DNA of 64,000 nucleotides from a virus (IMGVR_UViG_3300021399_000002:1-64000); one strand, 5' to 3'. Shown: positions 54,674-62,453, numbered from the stretch's first letter. Notes: generated from the sequence alone by a model not told the origin. Numbers and translations are program-made.

Positions 54674-54778
54674 TATTTGACTTTTTTCAAATTTCATGAT
54701 ATAATATTTACAGAAAGTGAGGAAAGGAACTCACCTTCTAAAAATAATTTTTTTCATTACATAAGGAGGTAATGAAGT

Positions 54779-55156: not shown

Positions 55157-55242
55157 TGCCCGTAGGTGTGCGGCTGCACGGGCGGTCTCTAAAACCGCGG
55201 CCTCTGAAGCAAACGGACTGGGTTCGACTCCCAGGCGGGCAG
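55157..55242 (+). tRNA. Amber suppressor tRNA (anticodon CUA), probably Gln-accepting
   Basis: Acceptor TGCCCGT/GCGGGCA, G73; arm GCGGT-CTCTAAA-ACCGC; T-arm CTGGG-TTCGACT-CCCAG. Confidence 0.85.
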
Positions 55243-55676
55243 GTAAGTTAAAAATATATATGTAACATGCGAGAAAATAGTTCAATTCTATTTTATCGCT
55301 TTTCTAGTTATCTCTCTTACTAGGCGCGAAAAATAGAGAGAAGGTATGTAAGTAGCCTTTATATAAATACTACCAGGAGTCATAACCCTGTTAGCTTATC
55401 CTAGGCAGGCAGAGTTGGATACCAATGCTAGGCATCTAAAATATATAGCATCAAGTCAGCTACCTTGTCAAAGTTAGCACCATTCCTTGAGGTAAAAAGA
55501 GGCGTAAGGCGACACGACATATCGCCTGTACAAATAGGAGTTGCGAACCTACGCGTACGATTCCGTAGTTCGAACCACTAACGCAATTAGTGCTTAAAAT
55601 TACGGAATTTTTTATTTGACTTTTAATAAAAATTCTGATATAATTTATTTGTAAGAAAGAGATAAGGAGAATAAAA

Positions 55677-55856: not shown

Positions 55857-55907
55857 TATTTGACTTTTAACATAATTTAAGATATAATAATTATGTTGAA
55901 AGGATAT

Positions 55908-55980: not shown

Positions 55981-56025
55981 CACCGACAAACTAGGGCAAT
56001 GTCGTTAAAAAATAGTTTAAGCCTA

Positions 56026-56140
56026 TAGGCATATACAGCAATGTAAGATGAAAATCAACATGTTACAAGTTCGACTCTTGTTAGTACCAATAGGTATTAT
56101 AGCTCAATTGGTAGAGCGTTTGACTTAAAAGATATGTCTA
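56026..56140 (+). ncRNA. Circularly permuted tRNA-like RNA (YrlA-type topology) 1
   Basis: T-arm and 3' acceptor precede 5' acceptor and D-arm; enclosed by AGGCATAT/ATATGTCT. Confidence 0.7.
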
Positions 56141-56204
56141 GTATCTCGGAGAGACCCGAGTATAAATAATGCGAGCCCATTCTATGAAATGGTAATTGCT
56201 CGAA

Positions 56205-56279
56205 TCCCGTAGGGAGGAATGGATTTCCTCGGCGGCCAGTAAACTGCAACAGATGGTTCGATTCCATATGCGGCGTACC
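56205..56279 (+). pseudogene. Degenerate tRNA-like element (possibly Thr AGU)
   Basis: D-arm GAGG/CCTC and T-loop TTCGATT, but poor anticodon and acceptor stems. Confidence 0.35.
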
Positions 56280-56450
56280 GATATGAAGTTCGGAGTAGAG
56301 TAAAATTAGGGTCGATAATATAGAAAGCCGGCATTCAATGATTGTTATCGGCAGTAAAACCACTTAATACTCGTAAAGAGTGCCCTAACGATTAGTAGCA
56401 TAAATATAAATGTGTCGGGTGCGAATAGGGGTGGAGAATCCTATAATTTA

Positions 56451-56566
56451 AGACACGTCAGCATTTCTTCTTTGCTTGAGGAGCCCGTCAAGTGTTGGTT
56501 CAACTCCAACCCTTCCAATTAATGGAAGGTCGCTCAATTGGCAGAAGCGCGGTTATAAACGTGTCT
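56451..56566 (+). ncRNA. Circularly permuted tRNA-like RNA 2
   Basis: GTTGG-TTCAACT-CCAAC-CCTTCCA..GGAAGG-TCGCTCAATTGGCAGAAGC inside AGACACG/CGTGTCT. Confidence 0.65.
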
Positions 56567-56574
56567 AGTTTTAT

Positions 56575-56650
56575 CGCGGGATAGTGCAGAGGTCTAGCAC
56601 GGTTGGCTCATACCCAACAAGCATGGGTTCAAATCCCATTCCCGCCACCA
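56575..56650 (+). tRNA. tRNA-Met(CAU), initiator-like
   Basis: CGCGGG start with a 1:72 mismatch; CT-CAT-AC; CCA encoded. Confidence 0.85.
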
Positions 56651-56689
56651 ACTCAGAGCAAATGTGTGGCTAGCAACCTACTGCTATAT

Positions 56690-56760
56690 GGCCTCTTAGC
56701 TCAGTGGTAGAGCGGGCGGCTGTTAACCGCTTGATGGGAGTCCGATTCTCTCAGAGGCCG
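56690..56760 (+). tRNA. tRNA-Asn(GUU)
   Basis: Loop CT-GTT-AA. Confidence 0.85.
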
Positions 56761-56949
56761 CTCGTGCTTTGATGACCAAATGTAGCTTGGCAGTAAATAA
56801 ATATTAATGCAGATGTGGGGTTATGATGTAAGCCTTTACCTTAAAAGACGAATTTCCACAGATACAGACCTGTGGCATAAGGCTATTGACCTGAAATGAA
56901 AGGTGTCGCCCTGGCAGATGGCAAGTTCGAAATAGTCTGCCGATTTTAT

Positions 56950-57026
56950 GCCCTATTGGTGTAATTGGTTAGCACAGTACCCTTTCAAGGTGCAGACGTG
57001 GAGTTCAAATCTCCCATAGGGTACCA
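56950..57026 (+). tRNA. tRNA-Glu(UUC)
   Basis: Loop CT-TTC-AA; CCA. Confidence 0.8.
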
Positions 57027-57182
57027 ATGTAGAGCTGACTACATAGCATTGGGTCCGGAACTGATGCATCAGCCCGAAAAACCTGATAACTAGTGTCATG
57101 GTTAGACACGGCGTGTGTTAGGTATGGTTATGAAAGCACGCAACAAATCCTAGAAATAGGTCGGGGTAGCTCCCCGTTTTAT

Positions 57183-57254
57183 ACCTGGTTCGGCTAACGG
57201 TCAGGCCACTTGTCTCTCAAGCAAGAAATATGGGTTCAATTCCCGTACTAGGTA
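57183..57254 (+). tRNA. tRNA-Glu(CUC)
   Basis: Loop CT-CTC-AA. Confidence 0.8.
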
Positions 57255-57474
57255 TGACGTATGTAGCAAAACGCCTCCGGCTCAGCCGAAAAGCGCGCTA
57301 CGCAGCGAGAAAAACGTGCGCTCGCAACCGTTAACACGGATTTAGCACTTAAACTACCACCGGCACGATTGGGAGGAGTGTTTATGAATGAACTTTCTAA
57401 ACGATACTCCATAATCAAACGTGATATGTGGCTTAGCGACAAACGGTATAAAAGAAGCGAAGTAAAGTGCAAAT

Positions 57475-57534
57475 TAGGCGCGAACAGCAAACTTTTATAA
57501 GAACATTTTTGCTTAAAAATATTTTATGCGCCTA
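57475..57534 (+). ncRNA. Minimal member of the CAGCA-stem RNA family (3)
   Basis: TAGGCGCGAACAGCAA..TGCGCCTA. Confidence 0.5.
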
Positions 57535-57544
57535 GAAGTTTTGG

Positions 57545-58310
57545 TAGTATGCGCCGTTGTACCGCTCAGAGCTTGCTCTGGTCGAGGTATTCTACCATAT
57601 GAAACGGACGTCGCGCGATTGCTGACGACTGAGACGCGCGCGTAATAAATGTCGGAACAAGTCGTAAATACTACTTTTGTAATCGGCTTACATGGCTAGA
57701 TTACGCCAAGCATCGAAAGGTTTGGAAATCCAAGGCGGAAATAACACACCGTGCATCGAAAATAGTCGAGAAATACGAATGATACGATGGTATGCCTTTG
57801 CCTTGACTGCAAAGGTGGGAAGGGACTCCAAGTGGAAGGTAACGACTTCAGGACGCTTCCTAGTAAAAAGACCGTGAAACTCGGTAGATGGATTTTAAGT
57901 AGTTTAAATGGCGCGTGCTTAATGAGTACACGCTTTGCATGAGGTAAATGCCAGTGTCGAGAATGGCGCTGAATACTAGTTGCATTTTCCTTGGTAATCT
58001 CCAGTATGAGAAAAAACTATCGTTTGGGCTGGCTGTAAGGCCCTTGGTCCACCCCTACGCCGGACACCGTTGAGATGTGCAGCAATCGCGCCGTTGAGAC
58101 GTGCAGTAACCGCGCCGTAGATGAGTTTCTCTTGACTCTGGGCGGTTCCCCTAAATAAGATTACTTCCCAATACAGAAAAACCGGGCGTTTCTAGAGCGC
58201 AATGATAGTGCGGTAAGGGTTGCATACTATCAGATTTACAGGAGTGATGAGAAGCTACTTCACTTAATACTCTGCTTGGCCATGGACGCATGGCGAACAA
58301 ATCCTGTATT
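57545..58310 (+). ncRNA. Candidate large structured ncRNA (GOLLD/ROOL-like context)
   Basis: ~760 nt, GC-elevated, no credible ORF, many hairpins, lies between tRNAs. Confidence 0.4.
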
Positions 58311-58314
58311 TTAT

Positions 58315-58399
58315 GCCCGAGTGGTGGAATAGGCAGACACACCGCACTTAAAATGCGGAGCTGTATAGCGTGCCGGTTCAAGTCCGGCCCCGGGCACCA
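58315..58399 (+). tRNA. tRNA-Leu(UAA)
   Basis: CT-TAA-AA; long variable arm; CCA. Confidence 0.9.
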
Positions 58400-58804
58400 A
58401 ATTTACGCCAAAAGGCGTTATTTTTATATAGGAGAAAATTAAAATGAAATTAAAAATATTAGTTTTCTTTATTATATTATTATTCATATTATTTTATCCT
58501 TCTATCGCTTATTAAGGAGTAATACAATGGAAGCAATTATCTCTACTTTTTTTGAAACTACAGATTTAGGAATAATTTTATTTGGTAGTATATTATTCAT
58601 TATTGTAATAATTGAATTTTTTAATCATAAGCCAAAATTTTAATATTTGACTTATAATAAAAATTTTGTTATAATAATTATGTACCAAGGGGAGAGATCC
58701 CGAGAAAGAAGAAACTTTCTTGTACGCCGCCAATGAGTGTCATTTTTAGGCGGGATATAAATTGAACTCCAGGGAGTATTAGGAATGACTAACTTCTCCC
58801 ATTT

Positions 58805-58879
58805 GCCTCCATCGTACAACGGCAAGTACGCTACATTCGTAATGTAGCTATGGCGGTCCGAATCCGTCTGGAGGCTCCA
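58805..58879 (+). tRNA. tRNA-Thr(CGU)
   Basis: TT-CGT-AA; CCA. Confidence 0.8.
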
Positions 58880-58903
58880 TTAAAAAAATCTGAAAGGAAA
58901 ATT

Positions 58904-59125
58904 ATGAAAAAGATTTATGTAGTTTTTATTGAGCGATATACTGATTGTGAATGTAGAAATTGGCGTATAGAAAGAGAATATGTAAAAACGGATAATATCG
59001 CAACATATATTGAATTGAAGAAATCTCAGATTGAATCTCGTAGCTATTGGTGGATGGATTATTGTAAGGGCGCGGATGACCGGCCCGATGTTAAAGCAGA
59101 AGAGCTTGAGATTAAAGTATTTTAA
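58904..59125 (+). CDS. Hypothetical protein
   Basis: GAAAGGA RBS; MKKIYVVFI. Confidence 0.7.
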   Translation: MKKIYVVFIERYTDCECRNWRIEREYVKTDNIATYIELKKSQIESRSYWWMDYCKGADDRPDVKAEELEIKVF

Positions 59126-59318
59126 TATACCAACGGACAAGGCTTAGGCGCATGACAATATCAGCGAAGAGGAAGAGGAAGCGTAAGCGTTATTAACCTA
59201 TAAGTGATATTGAACAGAGCGGTGGGACGCGAGTGGTTGGTAATTATATGGAACTAATCTATCCAGAGTTCCTGCGGTTCAAGGATAGGGTTTTGCGGCA
59301 CCTTAGACCGCATAATAT

Positions 59319-59425
59319 GGGATGTGATGCCAGTTCAGGGTACTGGATGAGGTAAACCGCAAGGTGATCACATAAGGGTAATGCAAAAACCGCCCGCTGG
59401 AGTTCAAATCTCCCACATTCCACCA
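59319..59425 (+). ncRNA. Aberrant tRNA-like RNA with 8-bp acceptor and 4-bp T-stem
   Basis: GGGATGTG/CACATTCC-ACCA; D-stem CCAGT/ACTGG; GGAG-TTCAAAT-CTCC. Confidence 0.55.
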
Positions 59426-59432
59426 TTAATAT

Positions 59433-59518
59433 GCGTCGGTAGTCCGTAGAAGGTAGCGGGTGGGTCTGTAAAACCCATGTCAATGACTCGGATGGTTCGA
59501 TCCCATCCCGGCGCACCA
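59433..59518 (+). tRNA. tRNA-Tyr(GUA)
   Basis: CT-GTA-AA; variable arm; CCA. Confidence 0.85.
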
Positions 59519-59598
59519 AATTGTTGTTCAGCTGACAACCCAGTGGATGGATTTGACGCATTCCGTGCTACTACTGCGAGAGGGTTCGCGCACCACGA

Positions 59599-59704
59599 GC
59601 CCATGAAGGTAGCACATTATCTCATGTACCAAGTGTACAAGGAGTTTTCGGGTGCGCGAAAGCGCATCTTGTGTCCAAATTAAGTTCGAATCTTAATATG
59701 GGCC
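59599..59704 (+). ncRNA. Aberrant tRNA-like RNA with oversized variable arm
   Basis: GCCCATG/TATGGGC; T-arm TTAAG-TTCGAAT-CTTAA; GGGTGCGC-GAAA-GCGCATCT. Confidence 0.5.
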
Positions 59705-59788
59705 CTTTACTTCGCAACCAGAAACGTACTGGCCAATTCCACAAATATTGCGGCAAGTTTTCGGGTTCTTGTTAAAAATCCCGTCCAT

Positions 59789-59862
59789 GCCTCCCTAATC
59801 CAAATGGCAGAGATAGCGCGCTAAGAACGCGTCCAGTGTGAGTTCGAATCTCACGAGAGGTA
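59789..59862 (+). tRNA. tRNA-Leu(AAG), short variable loop
   Basis: GCGCG-CT-AAG-AA-CGCGT. Confidence 0.75.
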
Positions 59863-59996
59863 CTTACGCCAGACCAAGGCCGTTCAAGAGGAAACAAGGA
59901 ACCCAGTTTCCATGGTCTATGCCTATGGTAAACGCATTAATTACGTAATAGGCGTCTTGCTCTGAGTAGCTATTACCAAAAGAGACATAGGGACAT

Positions 59997-60068
59997 CTCC
60001 GGCTAGTCTAAGGGATAGGACACATGGCTACGGACTATGGAATCGGCGTTCAAATCGTCGGCTGGAGA
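59997..60068 (+). tRNA. tRNA-Arg(ACG)
   Basis: CT-ACG-GA. Confidence 0.8.
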
Positions 60069-60111
60069 CTTCACGCGAAAAGCGCTAATTCATTTTGGAG
60101 GTATCTATAAT

Positions 60112-60651
60112 ATGAATGAACCAAGACTAAAGATTCTACCACCATGGACTATTACAATTCGTAAGTTTGAAGCCCTATTTGACGGTGATCCGCAGATTGC
60201 ATGTAATTGTAATTTTGGTGGTGCTACTCCTTCCATTGTGCTAGCTTGTAATGATGGCGATAAGGTTGCCGCTCTTCTACAAATTCTACCTGAAGAAGTA
60301 GATTTTGGTAATGTCAAGCTAAAGGTAATGGTTGATGGAACACCTAGCAACCGCGTCTTTAAGAGTAAGACTGACCTATTTGATACTGCTTTTGCTAAGA
60401 ATCCTGCCTATGCGTATTCTGTTTGTCCTGCTGAGAAAGGTTATCAGTGGATTGGCACTACATATGTTGTATTTAACAACTGTGTTGTACAGTTCGCGGC
60501 CGATAATCTAAATGACTGCCACGGTATCATTAGTACTCTGTATGAAACAATTGCTGGTGAACTTCTAACTGGCCCTGCTACTGAAGGTGTATTTTTTAAT
60601 ACCAATGTTGAGCGTGCTGGTCTGGGAATGCCGCTTGGAGAGTGGCCGTAA
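60112..60651 (+). CDS. Hypothetical phage protein
   Basis: GGAGG RBS before ATG 60112; the longer ORF-track start lies inside a tRNA. Confidence 0.8.
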   Translation: MNEPRLKILPPWTITIRKFEALFDGDPQIACNCNFGGATPSIVLACNDGDKVAALLQILPEEVDFGNVKLKVMVDGTPSNRVFKSKTDLFDTAFAKNPAYAYSVCPAEKGYQWIGTTYVVFNNCVVQFAADNLNDCHGIISTLYETIAGELLTGPATEGVFFNTNVERAGLGMPLGEWP

Positions 60652-60671
60652 TTAACAATTAGGAGAACTAA

Positions 60672-60833
60672 ATGATAGTTGAATTAACAAATCATTGGGT
60701 TGAAACGAGTGGTCAATATGAAATTGAAGGAGTAGAAGAATATAATGATTATTTTCGATTCTACTTCGGCAAGGGTAAATGGTCAAAAAAATATCACATA
60801 CCAACGTATACTTATAGAATTATACAAAAGTGA
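60672..60833 (+). CDS. Small hypothetical protein
   Basis: AGGAG RBS. Confidence 0.55.
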   Translation: MIVELTNHWVETSGQYEIEGVEEYNDYFRFYFGKGKWSKKYHIPTYTYRIIQK

Positions 60834-60932
60834 ATAATTAACAACTAATTGGGAACAAGTTACCGTAGAAGACTTGCGCGATAGCGGACCTGTAACGGGG
60901 AGAGGAGGTCGTAAATATCCACTTTCCGCCAT

Positions 60933-61004
60933 GCCCAGGTAGCCAAATGGAAAGGCTGGAGACTGAAAATCTCCCATGCGGTGGTCCGATTCCACCCCTG
61001 GGCA
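60933..61004 (+). tRNA. tRNA-Phe(GAA)
   Basis: CT-GAA-AA. Confidence 0.85.
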
Positions 61005-61115
61005 CTAAATCCTATAATAGCCAGTGATAGTATGGACACTATGGACGCCCTTTAAAGTTGTTCGCGGTAGTGAGAATAACCTTCGCCGTGGCGAAGTAAA
61101 AGAACCACGGAATAT

Positions 61116-61187
61116 ATCTCTCTGGCGTAATGGTAGCGTAGCAGACTCTTAATCTGTCAGGTAAGGGTTCGAGTCCCTTGGGAGGTA
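61116..61187 (+). tRNA. tRNA-Lys(CUU)
   Basis: CT-CTT-AA. Confidence 0.85.
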
Positions 61188-61191
61188 CTTC

Positions 61192-61263
61192 GCTCGTGTA
61201 GCCAACCGGTAAGGCACTAGACTTTTAATCTAGGTACAGTGGGTTCAATTCCCACCACGGGCA
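61192..61263 (+). tRNA. tRNA-Lys(UUU)
   Basis: CT-TTT-AA. Confidence 0.85.
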
Positions 61264-61282
61264 CAATAAAGGAGGAATTAGT

Positions 61283-61468
61283 ATGGAAGAATTATCTATT
61301 TCTTGGAAGGAATTTATTCATCCAGATATGAATGCAATAAGGCGCAGAGATGAATTTCTTAATTCTAATATATGTGAAAATATTGAATTTATAGATGGAG
61401 AAATTCATGCTGATATAACATATACTCCATTAGTTCAGAGGATAGAACAATCGCCTTCTAAGCGATAA
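61283..61468 (+). CDS. Small hypothetical protein running into tRNA-Arg
   Basis: AGGAGG RBS; last codons overlap the tRNA. Confidence 0.55.
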   Translation: MEELSISWKEFIHPDMNAIRRRDEFLNSNICENIEFIDGEIHADITYTPLVQRIEQSPSKR

Positions 61469-61499
61469 ATCATAGGTTCAAGTCCTATATGGAGTACCA
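61424..61499 (+). tRNA. tRNA-Arg(UCU)
   Basis: ATCGC-CT-TCT-AA-GCGAT; CCA. Confidence 0.85.
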
Positions 61500-61688
61500 T
61501 GCCGCTGTTGTATAAGCATTCTGAGAAAGCAGAGGATGCTAGCCGGTGGCACCAACTTCCCAACATACTGTCATGCGTGGGTGAAATAAGATGAGACAGG
61601 CGTTTCACGATGTCGGCATAAATCGTATATTTGACTTTTTATAAAATTATGTTATAATTATTATAGTAACAGGAAAGGAAGCAAGATT

Positions 61689-61919
61689 ATGAGAAATCCA
61701 AATCGTATTGATAGGTTTTGTGATGAACTTAAAGCAATTTGGCACCAGGTGCCAGATTGGCGCTTTGGGCAACTGATGGAAAATATGCTTGGTGCAAGAC
61801 TTCAGGCAGTATCAAATTCTAATGATTTCTTTTATACTGAGGATGAAGAATTGTTTGCTTTCTTTAAAAATTATATGAATGAGATTATAAAAGAAGGCAG
61901 ACAAAATAAAGATTGGTAA
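61689..61919 (+). CDS. Conserved-looking small phage protein
   Basis: MRNPNRI..W..PDWRFGQL..FYTED; promoter and RBS. Confidence 0.8.
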   Translation: MRNPNRIDRFCDELKAIWHQVPDWRFGQLMENMLGARLQAVSNSNDFFYTEDEELFAFFKNYMNEIIKEGRQNKDW

Positions 61920-62126
61920 TTACGCAATCCACTTGATATGGCTGTGACTACAAGGCGCGGAAAAGTGGCGGTAATCTCTTGCCCAAGTAAGTTGAAACGA
62001 TATATACCCTTGGGATGAAAAGCTTTAATGATGCGAAGATAGAGATATAACGTGAGTTTAGATATGTGTGTGTGTAGTCGGTCTCCCTGTGGCCCGTTAC
62101 GTATGAGTTGACACAGGGGAAGCTTC

Positions 62127-62200
62127 CGAGCATTGGCACAAGAGGTTAGCGCACAGAGCTGATAACTCTGAGGTTCCTAGTTCGATTCTAGGATGCTCGA
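62127..62200 (+). tRNA. tRNA-Ile(GAU)
   Basis: CT-GAT-AA. Confidence 0.85.
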
Positions 62201-62306
62201 CTACTAACGTAAATTCCGTATACGTCCGAATTACTACACAAAACGATGTAGTTGATACGGTAGAGAAAACTACGGCGCTATGCTAAGTAACAACGAAACT
62301 TGGTGA

Positions 62307-62377
62307 AGGAGTGTAAGATAATGGTAGTCGCGCGGTCTCCAAAACCGCTCGTGTTGGTTCGAATCCAGCCGCTCCTG
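62307..62377 (+). tRNA. tRNA-Trp(CCA)
   Basis: GCGGT-CT-CCA-AA-ACCGC. Confidence 0.85.
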
Positions 62378-62381
62378 CTTA

Positions 62382-62445
62382 AAGACTCGTCAGCAACATT
62401 TTTCAAGCATCTGACTGTTAATCTGATTAGCTATAAACGAGTCTT
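62382..62445 (+). ncRNA. Minimal member of the CAGCA-stem RNA family (4) carrying an Asn-like anticodon hairpin
   Basis: AAGACTCGTCAGCAA..ATCTGA-CTGTTAA-TCTGAT..AAACGAGTCTT. Confidence 0.55.
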
Positions 62446-62453
62446 GTTTTTAT

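What the first reader, a model, noticed from the sequence alone, without database searches (positions are those of the whole stretch)
56026..62445. Family of four RNAs with a shared terminal stem and CAGCA motif carrying permuted tRNAs or bare anticodon-like hairpins
Seen: elements at 56026-56140, 56451-56566, 57475-57534 and 62382-62445 all start AG(A/G)C...CAGCA and end with the complement of the 5' stem, with compensatory changes (AGGCATAT/ATATGTCT, AGACACG/CGTGTCT, AGGCGC/GCGCCT, AGACTCG/CGAGTCT). Two hold a tRNA in 3'-half-first order with a loop-closed acceptor stem. In element 1, GGTATTA/TAGTACC pairs fully, and joining the halves gives a CT-GAA-AA Phe loop. Element 4 carries only an Asn-like CTGTTAA stem-loop. 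Established: YrlA Y RNAs (Ro60/Rsr partners) have this T-before-D tRNA-mimic topology; true permuted tRNA genes are known from algae and archaea. Inference: a modular scaffold displaying tRNA parts, acting as Ro60-tethered Y RNAs, decoys for anticodon nucleases, or ligase-matured permuted tRNAs. No Ro60 or RtcB gene is visible in this window. This is my strongest candidate for an undescribed system.
Basis: partly seen in the sequence, partly recalled or inferred. Interest (0 to 1): 0.9.

Follow-up and report, generated by a model that had tools for sequence, protein, structure and literature searches.

The report
Partner RNAs of phage Ro60-like protein
The four elements are real members of a six-copy small-RNA family in this rumen phage: each has the same conserved "handle" carrying tRNA look-alike parts, and the handle almost always co-occurs, in phages and bacteria, with a gene for a Ro60-shaped protein of unknown function, so they are most likely that protein's Y-RNA-like partners.

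Summary
The phage genome (182,655 bp) holds exactly six such elements, four in the window, all on the tRNA strand.

The shared handle is 5' WW-AGRC-N4-(N)CAGCAA ... N4-GYCU-W-G 3'. The stem covaries. Two flanking positions that I never selected for are also conserved.

The cargo is tRNA-derived: closed-acceptor tRNA bodies (elements 1 and 2), a bare anticodon-like hairpin (element 4), or an AT-rich hairpin (element 3).

Rfam has no family for the handle. YrlA matches only the tRNA-like part of element 1, below threshold.

There is no Pfam TROVE or RtcB gene. However, 8.3 kb past the window the phage encodes a DUF2828/DUF7788 protein inside an RNA-repair cluster. Its AlphaFold model matches Ro60 structures over its full length.

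In 160 diverse DUF2828 loci from viruses and bacteria, the handle lies on the gene's strand 283 times against 5, mostly just upstream. Starting instead from the RNA pattern alone, 66 of 78 viral records encode DUF2828.

Binding, expression and function remain inferred. The handle also resembles the published Dictyostelium Class I RNA motif.

This scan had already noted the same RNA-protein pairing on other genomes. I found no paper describing it.

The parts
56025..56141 (+). Element 1. Handle stem 56027-56034 / 56132-56139, plus flanking pair 56026:56140 and G at 56141. CAGCAA at 56036-56041. The cargo is a tRNA body with closed acceptor: T arm 56065-56081; acceptor 56082-56088 / 56093-56099 capped by AATA; D arm 56102-56117; anticodon-stem strands TTTGA 56119-56123 and TCAAC 56055-56059. 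The handle enters inside the would-be anticodon loop (CT | GAAAA).
   Evidence: YrlA RF02553 scores 33.9 bits on 56045-56143 (T arm, acceptor and D arm only). RNAfold z = -2.39.
56449..56568 (+). Element 2. Handle stem 56451-56457 / 56560-56566, with G at 56568. CAGCAT at 56459-56464. The cargo is a tRNA body with closed acceptor: T arm 56494-56510; acceptor 56511-56517 / 56523-56529 capped by ATTAA; D arm 56532-56548. The anticodon stem is split by the handle: CGG (56550-56552) plus GC (56474-56475) pair with GCCCG (56483-56487), around loop TTGAGGA.
   Evidence: (z = -3.74). In orthologues the split stem covaries across the break: CGG+GC/GCCCG, CGT+GC/GCACG, CCG+GC/GCCGG (sequences).
57474..57535 (+). 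Element 3, a minimal member. Handle stem 57476-57482 / 57527-57533, flanking pair 57475:57534, G at 57535. CAGCAA at 57485-57490. The cargo is only an AT-rich hairpin (GCAAA...TTTGC, 57487-57512), with no tRNA part.
   Evidence: Best match of covariance model R1 in the genome: 46.8 bits, E 1.5e-7.
62381..62446 (+). Element 4. Handle stem 62383-62389 / 62438-62444, flanking pair 62382:62445, G at 62446. CAGCAA at 62391-62396. The cargo is an anticodon-arm mimic, TCTGA-CTGTTAA-TCTGA (62410-62426), with an Asn-like GUU loop and one U-U mismatch. It lies between tRNA-Trp and tRNA-Leu.
   Evidence: (34.2 bits). Orthologues keep the handle but change the loop triplet: GTT, TTT, GAT.

Best explanation
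These are stable small non-coding RNAs built like Y RNAs.

The handle is a conserved terminal helix: W:W, A-U, G-C, R-Y, C-G, then about four covarying pairs. It is followed by single-stranded (A/U)CAGCAA on the 5' side, and by a 3' W-G(U) tail. I take it to be the binding site for the phage's Ro60-shaped DUF2828/DUF7788 protein (genome 72343-73884).

The variable cargo (whole tRNA bodies with a capped acceptor, an anticodon arm plus T arm, or a bare anticodon-like hairpin) presents tRNA shapes to proteins that recognise tRNA.

The protein gene sits in an RNA-repair cluster (methyltransferase, P-loop kinase, metallophosphoesterase, RlaP nucleotidyltransferase, RNA ligase). I therefore propose that the particle works in the contest over tRNA cleavage. 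It would either tether the Ro-like ring to tRNA-handling enzymes for repair or disposal of damaged tRNAs, or bait host anticodon nucleases.

Shown: the family, its covarying handle, the tRNA-like cargo, the Ro60 fold of the protein, and the two-way genomic linkage.

Inferred: expression as discrete RNAs, direct binding, and the biochemical role.
For: 1. Family and handle.
- Six copies in the genome, all on the tRNA strand.
- 389 unique members pooled from phages and bacteria.
- Stem covariation.
- Flanks I never selected for are conserved: G at +2 in 379 of 389, and the -1/+1 pair switches A:U (217) to U:A (120).

2. Cargo.
- The Rfam tRNA and YrlA models align to it.
- 165 of 389 hold a 7-nt-loop anticodon-like hairpin, against 64 in shuffles; 140 hold a T arm.

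3. Protein.
- PF11443 and PF25043 hits.
- AlphaFold model from a 112-sequence alignment: pLDDT 92.4, pTM 0.92.
- The top 12 Foldseek PDB hits are all Ro60/TROVE structures over the full length: 1yvr E 1.2e-8 with TM 0.55, plus 2nvo, 9nen, 9kop, 9l5y.
- An invariant D-x-S-x-S (MIDAS) motif.

4. Linkage, protein to RNA.
- In 80 diverse viral DUF2828 loci: 169 handles on the gene strand against 3; 60 of 80 loci have at least one. Density is 1.14 per kb in the 500 nt upstream, and zero beyond 2 kb downstream.
- In 80 bacterial or MAG loci: 114 against 2; 65 of 80 loci.
- Phages whose protein is only 33-40% identical carry the handle directly beside the gene.

5. Linkage, RNA to protein.
- A 20-base handle pattern searched blind in IMG/VR gave at least 112 stretches.
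- 42 of 80 fetched pieces contain DUF2828, always on the same strand.
- Of the other records, 24 of 36 have it elsewhere, including 11 of 12 near-complete ones.

6. Context.
- RNA-repair genes flank the protein in this phage.
- In bacteria the order is WYL/WCX regulators, handle RNA, RtcB, DUF2828. This mirrors the Salmonella rsr-yrlBA-rtcBA operon (PMC7790460).
Against: - There is no direct evidence of transcription, RNA ends or binding.
- In this phage the six RNAs lie 7.4 to 16.3 kb upstream of the protein gene, not beside it.
- The handle has none of the features of the canonical Ro60 site: no CGAA bulge, and no match to the YrlA stem.
- 20 of 80 viral and 15 of 80 bacterial DUF2828 loci show no strict handle within the flanks.
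- One complete 75-kb record with the RNA pattern shows no DUF2828.
- A neighbouring gene is not proof of a partner. The handle could instead be bound by another conserved neighbour, or act on its own.
Confidence: 0.62

Rival explanations
1. Stand-alone decoys. The RNAs act without the Ro60-like protein, as competitive baits for host anticodon nucleases or tRNA-modifying enzymes. The handle only gives stability or defines the processing ends.
For: Anticodon-like loops are enriched. CU-NNN-AA is the commonest loop form (88). The top triplets are UUU 22, GUU 18 and GUA 12. From my own knowledge, these are the Lys, Asn and Tyr species that known anticodon nucleases cut. In this phage the cargo triplets (GAA, GUU, GUA twice) duplicate ordinary phage tRNAs. 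Orthologues of element 4 swap the triplet while keeping the handle. A decoy role has been suggested for YrlA itself (PMC7790460).
Against: This does not explain why a sequence-specific handle, including an unpaired CAGCAA and a 3' G, is conserved from phages to bacteria and tracks one protein family in both directions. Many members, such as element 3, have no tRNA-like cargo.
Confidence: 0.14
2. Permuted or split tRNA genes. Elements 1 and 2 are matured into working tRNAs: RNase P and RNase Z open the acceptor cap, and the phage ligase or the handle helix holds the halves together.
For: Elements 1 and 2 and several relatives hold every tRNA arm. The phage has an RNA ligase, a kinase and a phosphatase. 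Circular permutations exist: tRNA-like genes with an open acceptor, some with encoded CCA, and the handle closed by a loop. [quoted passage not shown]
Against: More than half of the 389 members have no T arm, and many are about 60 nt with no tRNA body. The cap loops are 4-5 nt with no CCA. The handle would stay as a fifth arm inside the anticodon stem or loop. Element 2's relatives conserve an odd NNNRGGA loop, and in several of them U33 is missing. The phage already has regular tRNAs for Phe, Asn and Tyr.
Confidence: 0.07
3. A signal acting in cis. The handle is a processing or termination element of the tRNA operon, or an autoregulatory operator in the leader of the DUF2828 mRNA.
For: The density peak is in the 500 nt just upstream of the gene. 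A few copies touch the start codon, for example L110 (4 nt before it) and L145. The handle is often followed by a T-rich run.
Against: There are multiple tandem copies with different elaborate cargos. In this phage they sit 7-16 kb from the gene, among tRNAs. Some copies stand behind their own promoter-like -35/-10, with the start near the first A of AGAC (L068). An operator role would in any case require the protein to bind the handle.
Confidence: 0.1
4. Small mobile DNA elements (MITE-like, or tied to IS605/TnpB) with terminal inverted repeats that happen to carry tRNA fragments.
For: Terminal inverted repeats are present. Copy number varies between related phages. One tRNA with a handle insert shows a TCAGA duplication (L140). 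TnpB genes lie next to two handle-tRNA clusters.
Against: Strand bias relative to neighbouring genes is extreme: 169:3 and 114:2. The inner stem changes by compensation, while only the outer 4 bp and an unpaired motif are fixed. The open form shows no target-site duplications.
Confidence: 0.03

Closest known systems
Bacterial and phage Y RNAs (YrlA/YrlB, Rfam RF02553; D. radiodurans Yrn1; Thermus phage phiLo Yrl1/Yrl2) with Ro60/Rsr
   Same: - Length of about 60-130 nt.
- The 5' and 3' ends form the stem taken to be the protein site.
- Modular, with a tRNA-like domain. In YrlA the order is T arm, closed acceptor, D arm, as in elements 1 and 2. In Yrn1 the order is D, anticodon-like arm, T, as in many bacterial members.
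- Several copies are encoded next to a ring-plus-vWA protein and an RNA ligase (PMC4201824, PMC7790460, PMC12135203).
   Different: - The stem sequence is unrelated. There is no CGAA bulge, and the YrlA model does not align to it.
- The candidate partner is DUF2828/DUF7788, which the Pfam TROVE model does not detect. It resembles Ro60 only at the fold level, at 10-15% identity.
- The cargo is far more varied, including true anticodon-arm mimics with changing triplets. The attachment point on the tRNA body also varies.
- Up to 8 copies occur per locus.
- Binding is untested.
Class I RNAs of dictyostelid social amoebae (Aspegren 2004; Kjellin 2021, PMC7919456; search pattern in PMC5054030)
   Same: - 42-65 nt.
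- A short covarying stem joins the 5' and 3' ends.
- A conserved unpaired motif ending in ACAGCAA sits directly after the 5' strand.
- A GRC/GYC pairing in the stem 3-4 nt before that motif.
- A conserved G(U) in the 3' tail.
- The rest of the RNA is variable.
- Many gene copies.
- The published pattern is GTTGRCCTTACAGCAA ... GTCAACTG.
   Different: - They are eukaryotic, with their own upstream promoter element, and are reported as unique to Dictyostelia.
- The stem extends outward from GRC rather than inward.
- No tRNA-like cargo has been described.
- The known binder is the RRM protein Rnp1A.
- I did not test whether amoebae encode DUF2828.
- The resemblance rests on the motif only. No model-based test was run.
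Permuted tRNA genes of red algae and split tRNAs of archaea (from my own knowledge)
   Same: In elements 1 and 2 the 3' half comes before the 5' half, with the acceptor strands joined by a short linker.
   Different: Those genes yield ordinary tRNAs through a bulge-helix-bulge splicing endonuclease and a ligase. Here there is no such motif. The conserved handle stays attached, and most family members have no tRNA body.

Membership tests
YrlA / Y RNA (Rfam RF02553) | Score at or above the family's gathering threshold on the curated covariance model | tested here: not met
   Element 1 scores 33.9 bits and element 2 scores 17.5 bits, against a gathering score of 69. Elements 3 and 4 have no hit even at E <= 10.
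YrlA / Y RNA (Rfam RF02553) | tRNA-like domain with T arm, loop-closed acceptor-like stem and D arm | tested here: met
   Met for elements 1 and 2 (alignments). Not present in elements 3 and 4.
YrlA / Y RNA (Rfam RF02553) | Terminal stem carrying the canonical Ro60 site (conserved helix with a bulge, CGAA motif) | tested here: not met
   The YrlA stem columns are gapped or mismatched. The handle reads AGRC-N4-(N)CAGCAA / N4-GYCU-WG. The CGAA criterion comes from PMC12135203.
YrlA / Y RNA (Rfam RF02553) | Encoded beside a Ro60 (TROVE) orthologue and bound by it | tested here: inconclusive
   No Pfam TROVE hit in the genome. A Ro60-fold DUF2828 protein is present and linked to the handle across 160 loci. 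Binding cannot be tested with these tools.
Ro60 / TROVE protein family (for the candidate partner) | HEAT-repeat ring plus vWA domain with a MIDAS motif | tested here: met
   AlphaFold pLDDT 92.4. Full-length Foldseek matches to 1yvr, 2i91, 2nvo, 9nen, 9kop and 9l5y with probability 1.00 and TM 0.40-0.55. D314-x-S316-x-S318 is invariant.
Ro60 / TROVE protein family (for the candidate partner) | Sequence match to Pfam TROVE (PF05731) or to solved Ro60 chains | tested here: not met
   No PF05731 match. phmmer against PDB sequences finds no Ro60.
Dictyostelid Class I RNA | 5'/3' stem plus the 11-nt motif (CCUUACAGCAA) directly after the 5' strand, with a conserved 3' tail | tested here: inconclusive
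   ACAGCAA, the GRC/GYC pairs and the 3' G are shared with the published pattern. The first four motif letters and the stem register differ. The published covariance model was not available to run.
Permuted tRNA gene | All tRNA arms present and joinable into a canonical cloverleaf with a 7-nt anticodon loop | tested here: inconclusive
   The arms are present in elements 1 and 2. The loop is interrupted by the handle in element 1, and the anticodon stem is interrupted in element 2. Maturation cannot be tested here.

The most novel reading that the evidence does not exclude
The handle RNAs, together with DUF2828/DUF7788 proteins, form a third, very large and so far undescribed branch of Ro60/Y-RNA particles. 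It spans tailed phages, giant viruses, Bacillota and possibly eukaryotes, and the long-unexplained Class I RNAs of social amoebae are its eukaryotic members. Within it, the exchangeable anticodon-arm cargo serves as bait or adaptor in the tRNA-cleavage arms race between phages and hosts.
Probability: 0.3. Interest if true: 0.92.

Novelty: new variant of a known kind. Interest (0 to 1): 0.85.

Why it matters
- DUF2828/DUF7788 is a very large family with no known function: more than 6,300 clusters at 50% identity match at E <= 0.001. A conserved RNA partner and a Ro60 fold would give it a testable role.
- It would extend the Ro60/Y-RNA idea to a second protein lineage, with a different RNA recognition code.
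- It shows that phage tRNA arrays hide non-tRNA genes that tRNA finders and Rfam miss.
- The varied anticodon-arm cargos offer a direct experimental handle on how phages answer host tRNA-cutting defences.
- If the likeness to dictyostelid Class I RNAs reflects common descent, it would overturn the view that those RNAs are unique to social amoebae, and it would suggest a partner protein for them.

Tried and rejected
- Rfam at gathering score and at E <= 10. There is no family for the handle. Only a weak YrlA hit and tRNA hits on the cargo.
- Pfam TROVE and RtcB searches of the phage genome. Both negative, which at first seemed to argue against a Ro-type system.
- AlphaFold on the single sequence of the protein gave an unusable model, pLDDT 44. 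Repeated with an alignment.
- phmmer of the protein against PDB sequences: nothing relevant.
- Covariance model R1, built from short members, finds only the three short elements in the genome. Long cargos are penalised, so I used pattern-plus-pairing scans for the counts.
- I looked for a conserved second helix between the U-rich stretch after CAGCAA and the A-rich stretch before the 3' strand. By eye there are only scattered 2-3 bp matches, so I make no claim.
- CAGCAA pairing with a downstream TTGCT occurs in some members (element 3, relatives of element 2) but not generally. I rejected it as a family feature.
A smaller alignment, A3, worked.
- Paper searches for DUF2828, DUF7788, PF11443 and Ro60-like found no description of an RNA partner.
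- The ESM Atlas look-up only confirmed the DUF2828 clusters, mostly viral. It gave no information on amoebae.

Full report
**What the window is.** The window is the first 64 kb of a complete 182,655-bp IMG/VR virus record with direct terminal repeats. From about 55.1 to 66.1 kb it carries a tRNA array: 24 ARAGORN calls, including a CUA suppressor tRNA. Open reading frames of 100 aa or more nearly double in total length when TAG is read through, so the phage probably recodes TAG. Rfam also finds cow-rumen-3 and cow-rumen-4 RNAs in the array.

**Checking the observation.**
- A strict scan asked for AGRC, 2-8 nt, CAGCA, then GYCT closing at least 6 bp. In the whole genome, on both strands, it finds only these four plus two more just past the window end (genome 64725-64814 and 64826-64930). 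All six are on the tRNA strand.
- I fetched 55 related rumen-phage loci through a 179-aa ORF of the array. They hold 144 such elements on the tRNA strand against 3 on the other, giving 135 unique sequences.
- Without asking for any closure, the 5' motif occurs 162 times against 8. Of the 162, 93% close with at least 6 bp, compared with 16% of control AGRC sites.
- On a 45-sequence alignment from very different phages, 99% of cells pair. Stem positions 3, 5, 6 and 7 change on both sides in 77 cells, against 23.5 in shuffles. Slid registers collapse.

- I pooled 389 unique elements and looked at flanks that no filter had touched.
- The base two positions after GYCT is G in 379 of 389.
- The bases just outside the stem pair as A:U (217), U:A (120) or G:C (7).
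- The handle is therefore 5' WW-AGRC-N4-(N)CAGCAA ... N4-GYCU-W-G(U) 3'.
- The base after CAGCA is A in 123 of the 135 unique sequences from this phage's relatives. Element 2 is one of the exceptions (CAGCAT).

**Cargo of elements 1 and 2.**
- Element 1 holds a T arm, an acceptor stem closed by AATA, and a D arm. The Rfam YrlA and tRNA models align to exactly these parts.
- Element 2 is also a closed-acceptor tRNA body. Its anticodon stem is split by the handle: CGG after the D arm, plus GC after the U-rich linker, pair with GCCCG around the loop TTGAGGA.
- In orthologues this split stem covaries across the break (CGT+GC/GCACG, CCG+GC/GCCGG; sequences). The tRNA-like fold therefore forms with the handle as an extra branch.

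**Cargo of the other elements.**
- Element 3 has only an AT-rich hairpin.
- Element 4 has an anticodon-arm mimic with loop CTGTTAA and one U-U mismatch. Its orthologues keep the handle but read GTT, TTT or GAT in the loop.
- The two copies outside the window carry Tyr-like loops. One has an anticodon arm plus T arm. The other is a near-complete tRNA body with a 6-nt loop, which ARAGORN calls tRNA-???.
- Across the 389 members, 165 have an anticodon-like hairpin with a 7-nt loop (shuffles give 64) and 140 have a T arm. The commonest loop triplets are UUU 22, GUU 18 and GUA 12.

**The handle attaches at different points.** Attachment sites on the tRNA body include the D/anticodon junction, inside the anticodon stem, the anticodon loop, the T/acceptor junction, and, in many bacterial members, the place of the acceptor stem itself.

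**A circularly permuted form also exists.** Some tRNA-like genes have an open acceptor, a few with encoded CCA, and the handle closed by a short loop. The letters of that loop match the flanks of the open form (Rfam reads these as tRNAs with an insert of about 45 nt). The handle is thus a portable module.

**Not YrlA, and not in Rfam.**
- YrlA scores 33.9 bits on element 1 and 17.5 on element 2, against a gathering score of 69, and only on the tRNA-like part.
- Elements 3 and 4 match nothing at E <= 10.
- Eleven further loci give only tRNA hits on the cargo.

**The protein.**
- The genome has no Pfam TROVE or RtcB match.
- PF11443 and PF25043 hit a 513-aa frame at genome 72343-73884.
- Its neighbours are a methyltransferase, an AAA_33 kinase, a metallophosphoesterase, an RlaP nucleotidyltransferase and an RNA ligase. 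This is an RNA-repair set as described for jumbo phages (PMC7824862).
- A single-sequence fold failed. With 112 diverse homologues the model reached pLDDT 92.4 and pTM 0.92.
- The top twelve Foldseek matches in the PDB are all Ro60/TROVE structures aligned over the full length: frog, human, Deinococcus Rsr and Thermus phage phiLo. Isolated vWA/MIDAS domains follow.
- D-x-S-x-S is invariant.
- So the phage has a Ro60-shaped protein that sequence models of TROVE miss.

**Linkage, starting from the protein.**
- In phages whose protein is only 33-40% identical to this one, the handle lies right beside the gene. In L068 there are three copies in the 750 nt upstream and one 78 nt downstream. L071 and L072 are similar.
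- In 80 diverse viral DUF2828 loci the strict motif occurs 169 times on the gene strand against 3, in 60 of the 80 loci.
- Density is 1.14 per kb in the 500 nt upstream of the gene, 0.03-0.43 per kb further upstream, about 0.1 per kb in the first 2 kb downstream, and zero beyond.
- In 80 bacterial or MAG loci, mostly Clostridia, the count is 114 against 2, in 65 loci.
- Three of these bacterial loci read WYL and WCX regulators, handle RNA, RtcB, DUF2828. This is the layout of the Salmonella rsr-yrlBA-rtcBA operon (PMC7790460).

**Linkage, starting from the RNA.**
My rough estimate of the chance expectation is a handful.
- 42 of the 80 fetched pieces contain a DUF2828 gene, always on the RNA's strand. 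About twenty of these lie 20-160 nt downstream of the RNA.
- Of the other records, 24 of 36 have the gene elsewhere, including 11 of 12 that are at least 90% complete.
- In total, 66 of 78 records encode DUF2828.

**Interpretation.**
- The simplest reading is a Y-RNA-like particle: the handle binds the Ro60-like protein, and the tRNA-shaped cargo engages tRNA-recognising proteins.
- The repair-gene context and the Lys/Asn/Tyr-type loops point to the conflict over tRNA cleavage.
- Whether the particle repairs, degrades, senses or decoys is open. A decoy role has been suggested for YrlA, and PNPase tethering is shown for canonical Ro60.
- Against permuted tRNAs: most members lack a tRNA body, the caps lack CCA, and the phage already has regular tRNAs for the cargo anticodons.
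- Against mobile DNA: the strand bias and the compensatory changes.
- Not shown here: expression, RNA ends, binding.

**Comparison with known systems.**
- The closest by function is Ro60 with YrlA, Yrn1 or Yrl RNAs. Membership fails on the model score and on the Ro site.
- The closest by sequence motif is the dictyostelid Class I RNA family. It has a 5'/3' stem and an 11-nt motif ending in ACAGCAA directly after the 5' strand. The published pattern is GTTGRCCTTACAGCAA ... GTCAACTG, with a conserved 3' tail and a variable rest (PMC7919456, PMC5054030).
I did not test whether amoebae encode DUF2828.

**Prior art and status.**
- Paper searches found no description of an RNA partner for DUF2828/DUF7788.
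- The scan itself has noted the same pairing on many other genomes. I re-derived the evidence independently here.

**Verdict.** This is a real, widespread RNA family absent from Rfam and from the papers I searched. It is best filed as a new variant of the Ro60/Y-RNA kind, with binding and function still to be shown.

Noticed in passing
window 57910-58053, 54710-54775, 57675-57786: Rfam cow-rumen-3 (121 bits) and cow-rumen-4 (61 bits) RNAs lie inside the tRNA array. There is also a sub-threshold RAGATH-33 match (42 bits, gathering score 120).
   Followed up: no
window 55157-55242: A tRNA with anticodon CUA (ARAGORN calls it Pyl; Rfam gives a weak tRNA-Sec match). Total length of ORFs of 100 aa or more rises from 33,073 to 62,327 aa when TAG is read through. 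The phage therefore probably reads TAG as an amino acid.
   Followed up: partly
L128:2756-3131, L068:9349-9465, L140:3846-3966, L123:5340-5700, L129:7930-8740: A circularly permuted form of the family. These are tRNA-like genes with an open acceptor, some with encoded CCA, in which the handle is closed by a 3-8 nt loop and sits in the anticodon loop, in the anticodon stem or after the D arm. In L140 the anticodon loop reads CUA and TCAGA is duplicated on both sides of the insert.
   Followed up: partly
L172:1294-6503, L178:1154-6497, L215:599-4417: Bacterial (Clostridia) loci with the order WYL regulator, WCX-domain protein, handle RNA carrying a D-anticodon-T cargo, RtcB (in L172, and by its matching layout L178), DUF2828. 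This is a chromosomal counterpart of the Salmonella rsr-yrlBA-rtcBA operon.
   Followed up: partly
L128:3355-4485, L140:4067-5176: IS605 OrfB/TnpB genes lie directly next to clusters of handle-bearing tRNA-like genes. Whether this is a coincidence was not examined.
   Followed up: no
window 56142-56448: A 307-nt non-coding gap between elements 1 and 2 contains a T-loop-like GGTTCGATTCC at 56255-56265. No tRNA or Rfam call covers it. Similar unexplained gaps lie at 56762-56949, 57027-57181 and 59126-59432.
   Followed up: no
window 55616-55652, 55861-55895, 58637-58678, 61631-61668: Near-identical strong promoter-like sites (TTGACTT..., 17-nt spacer, TATAAT) precede the small ORFs that are scattered through the tRNA array.
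   Followed up: no
L110:4499-4561, L145:5961-6003: In some phages a handle ends 4 nt before the DUF2828 start codon, or overlaps it. This hints at autoregulation of the protein's own mRNA.
   Followed up: no
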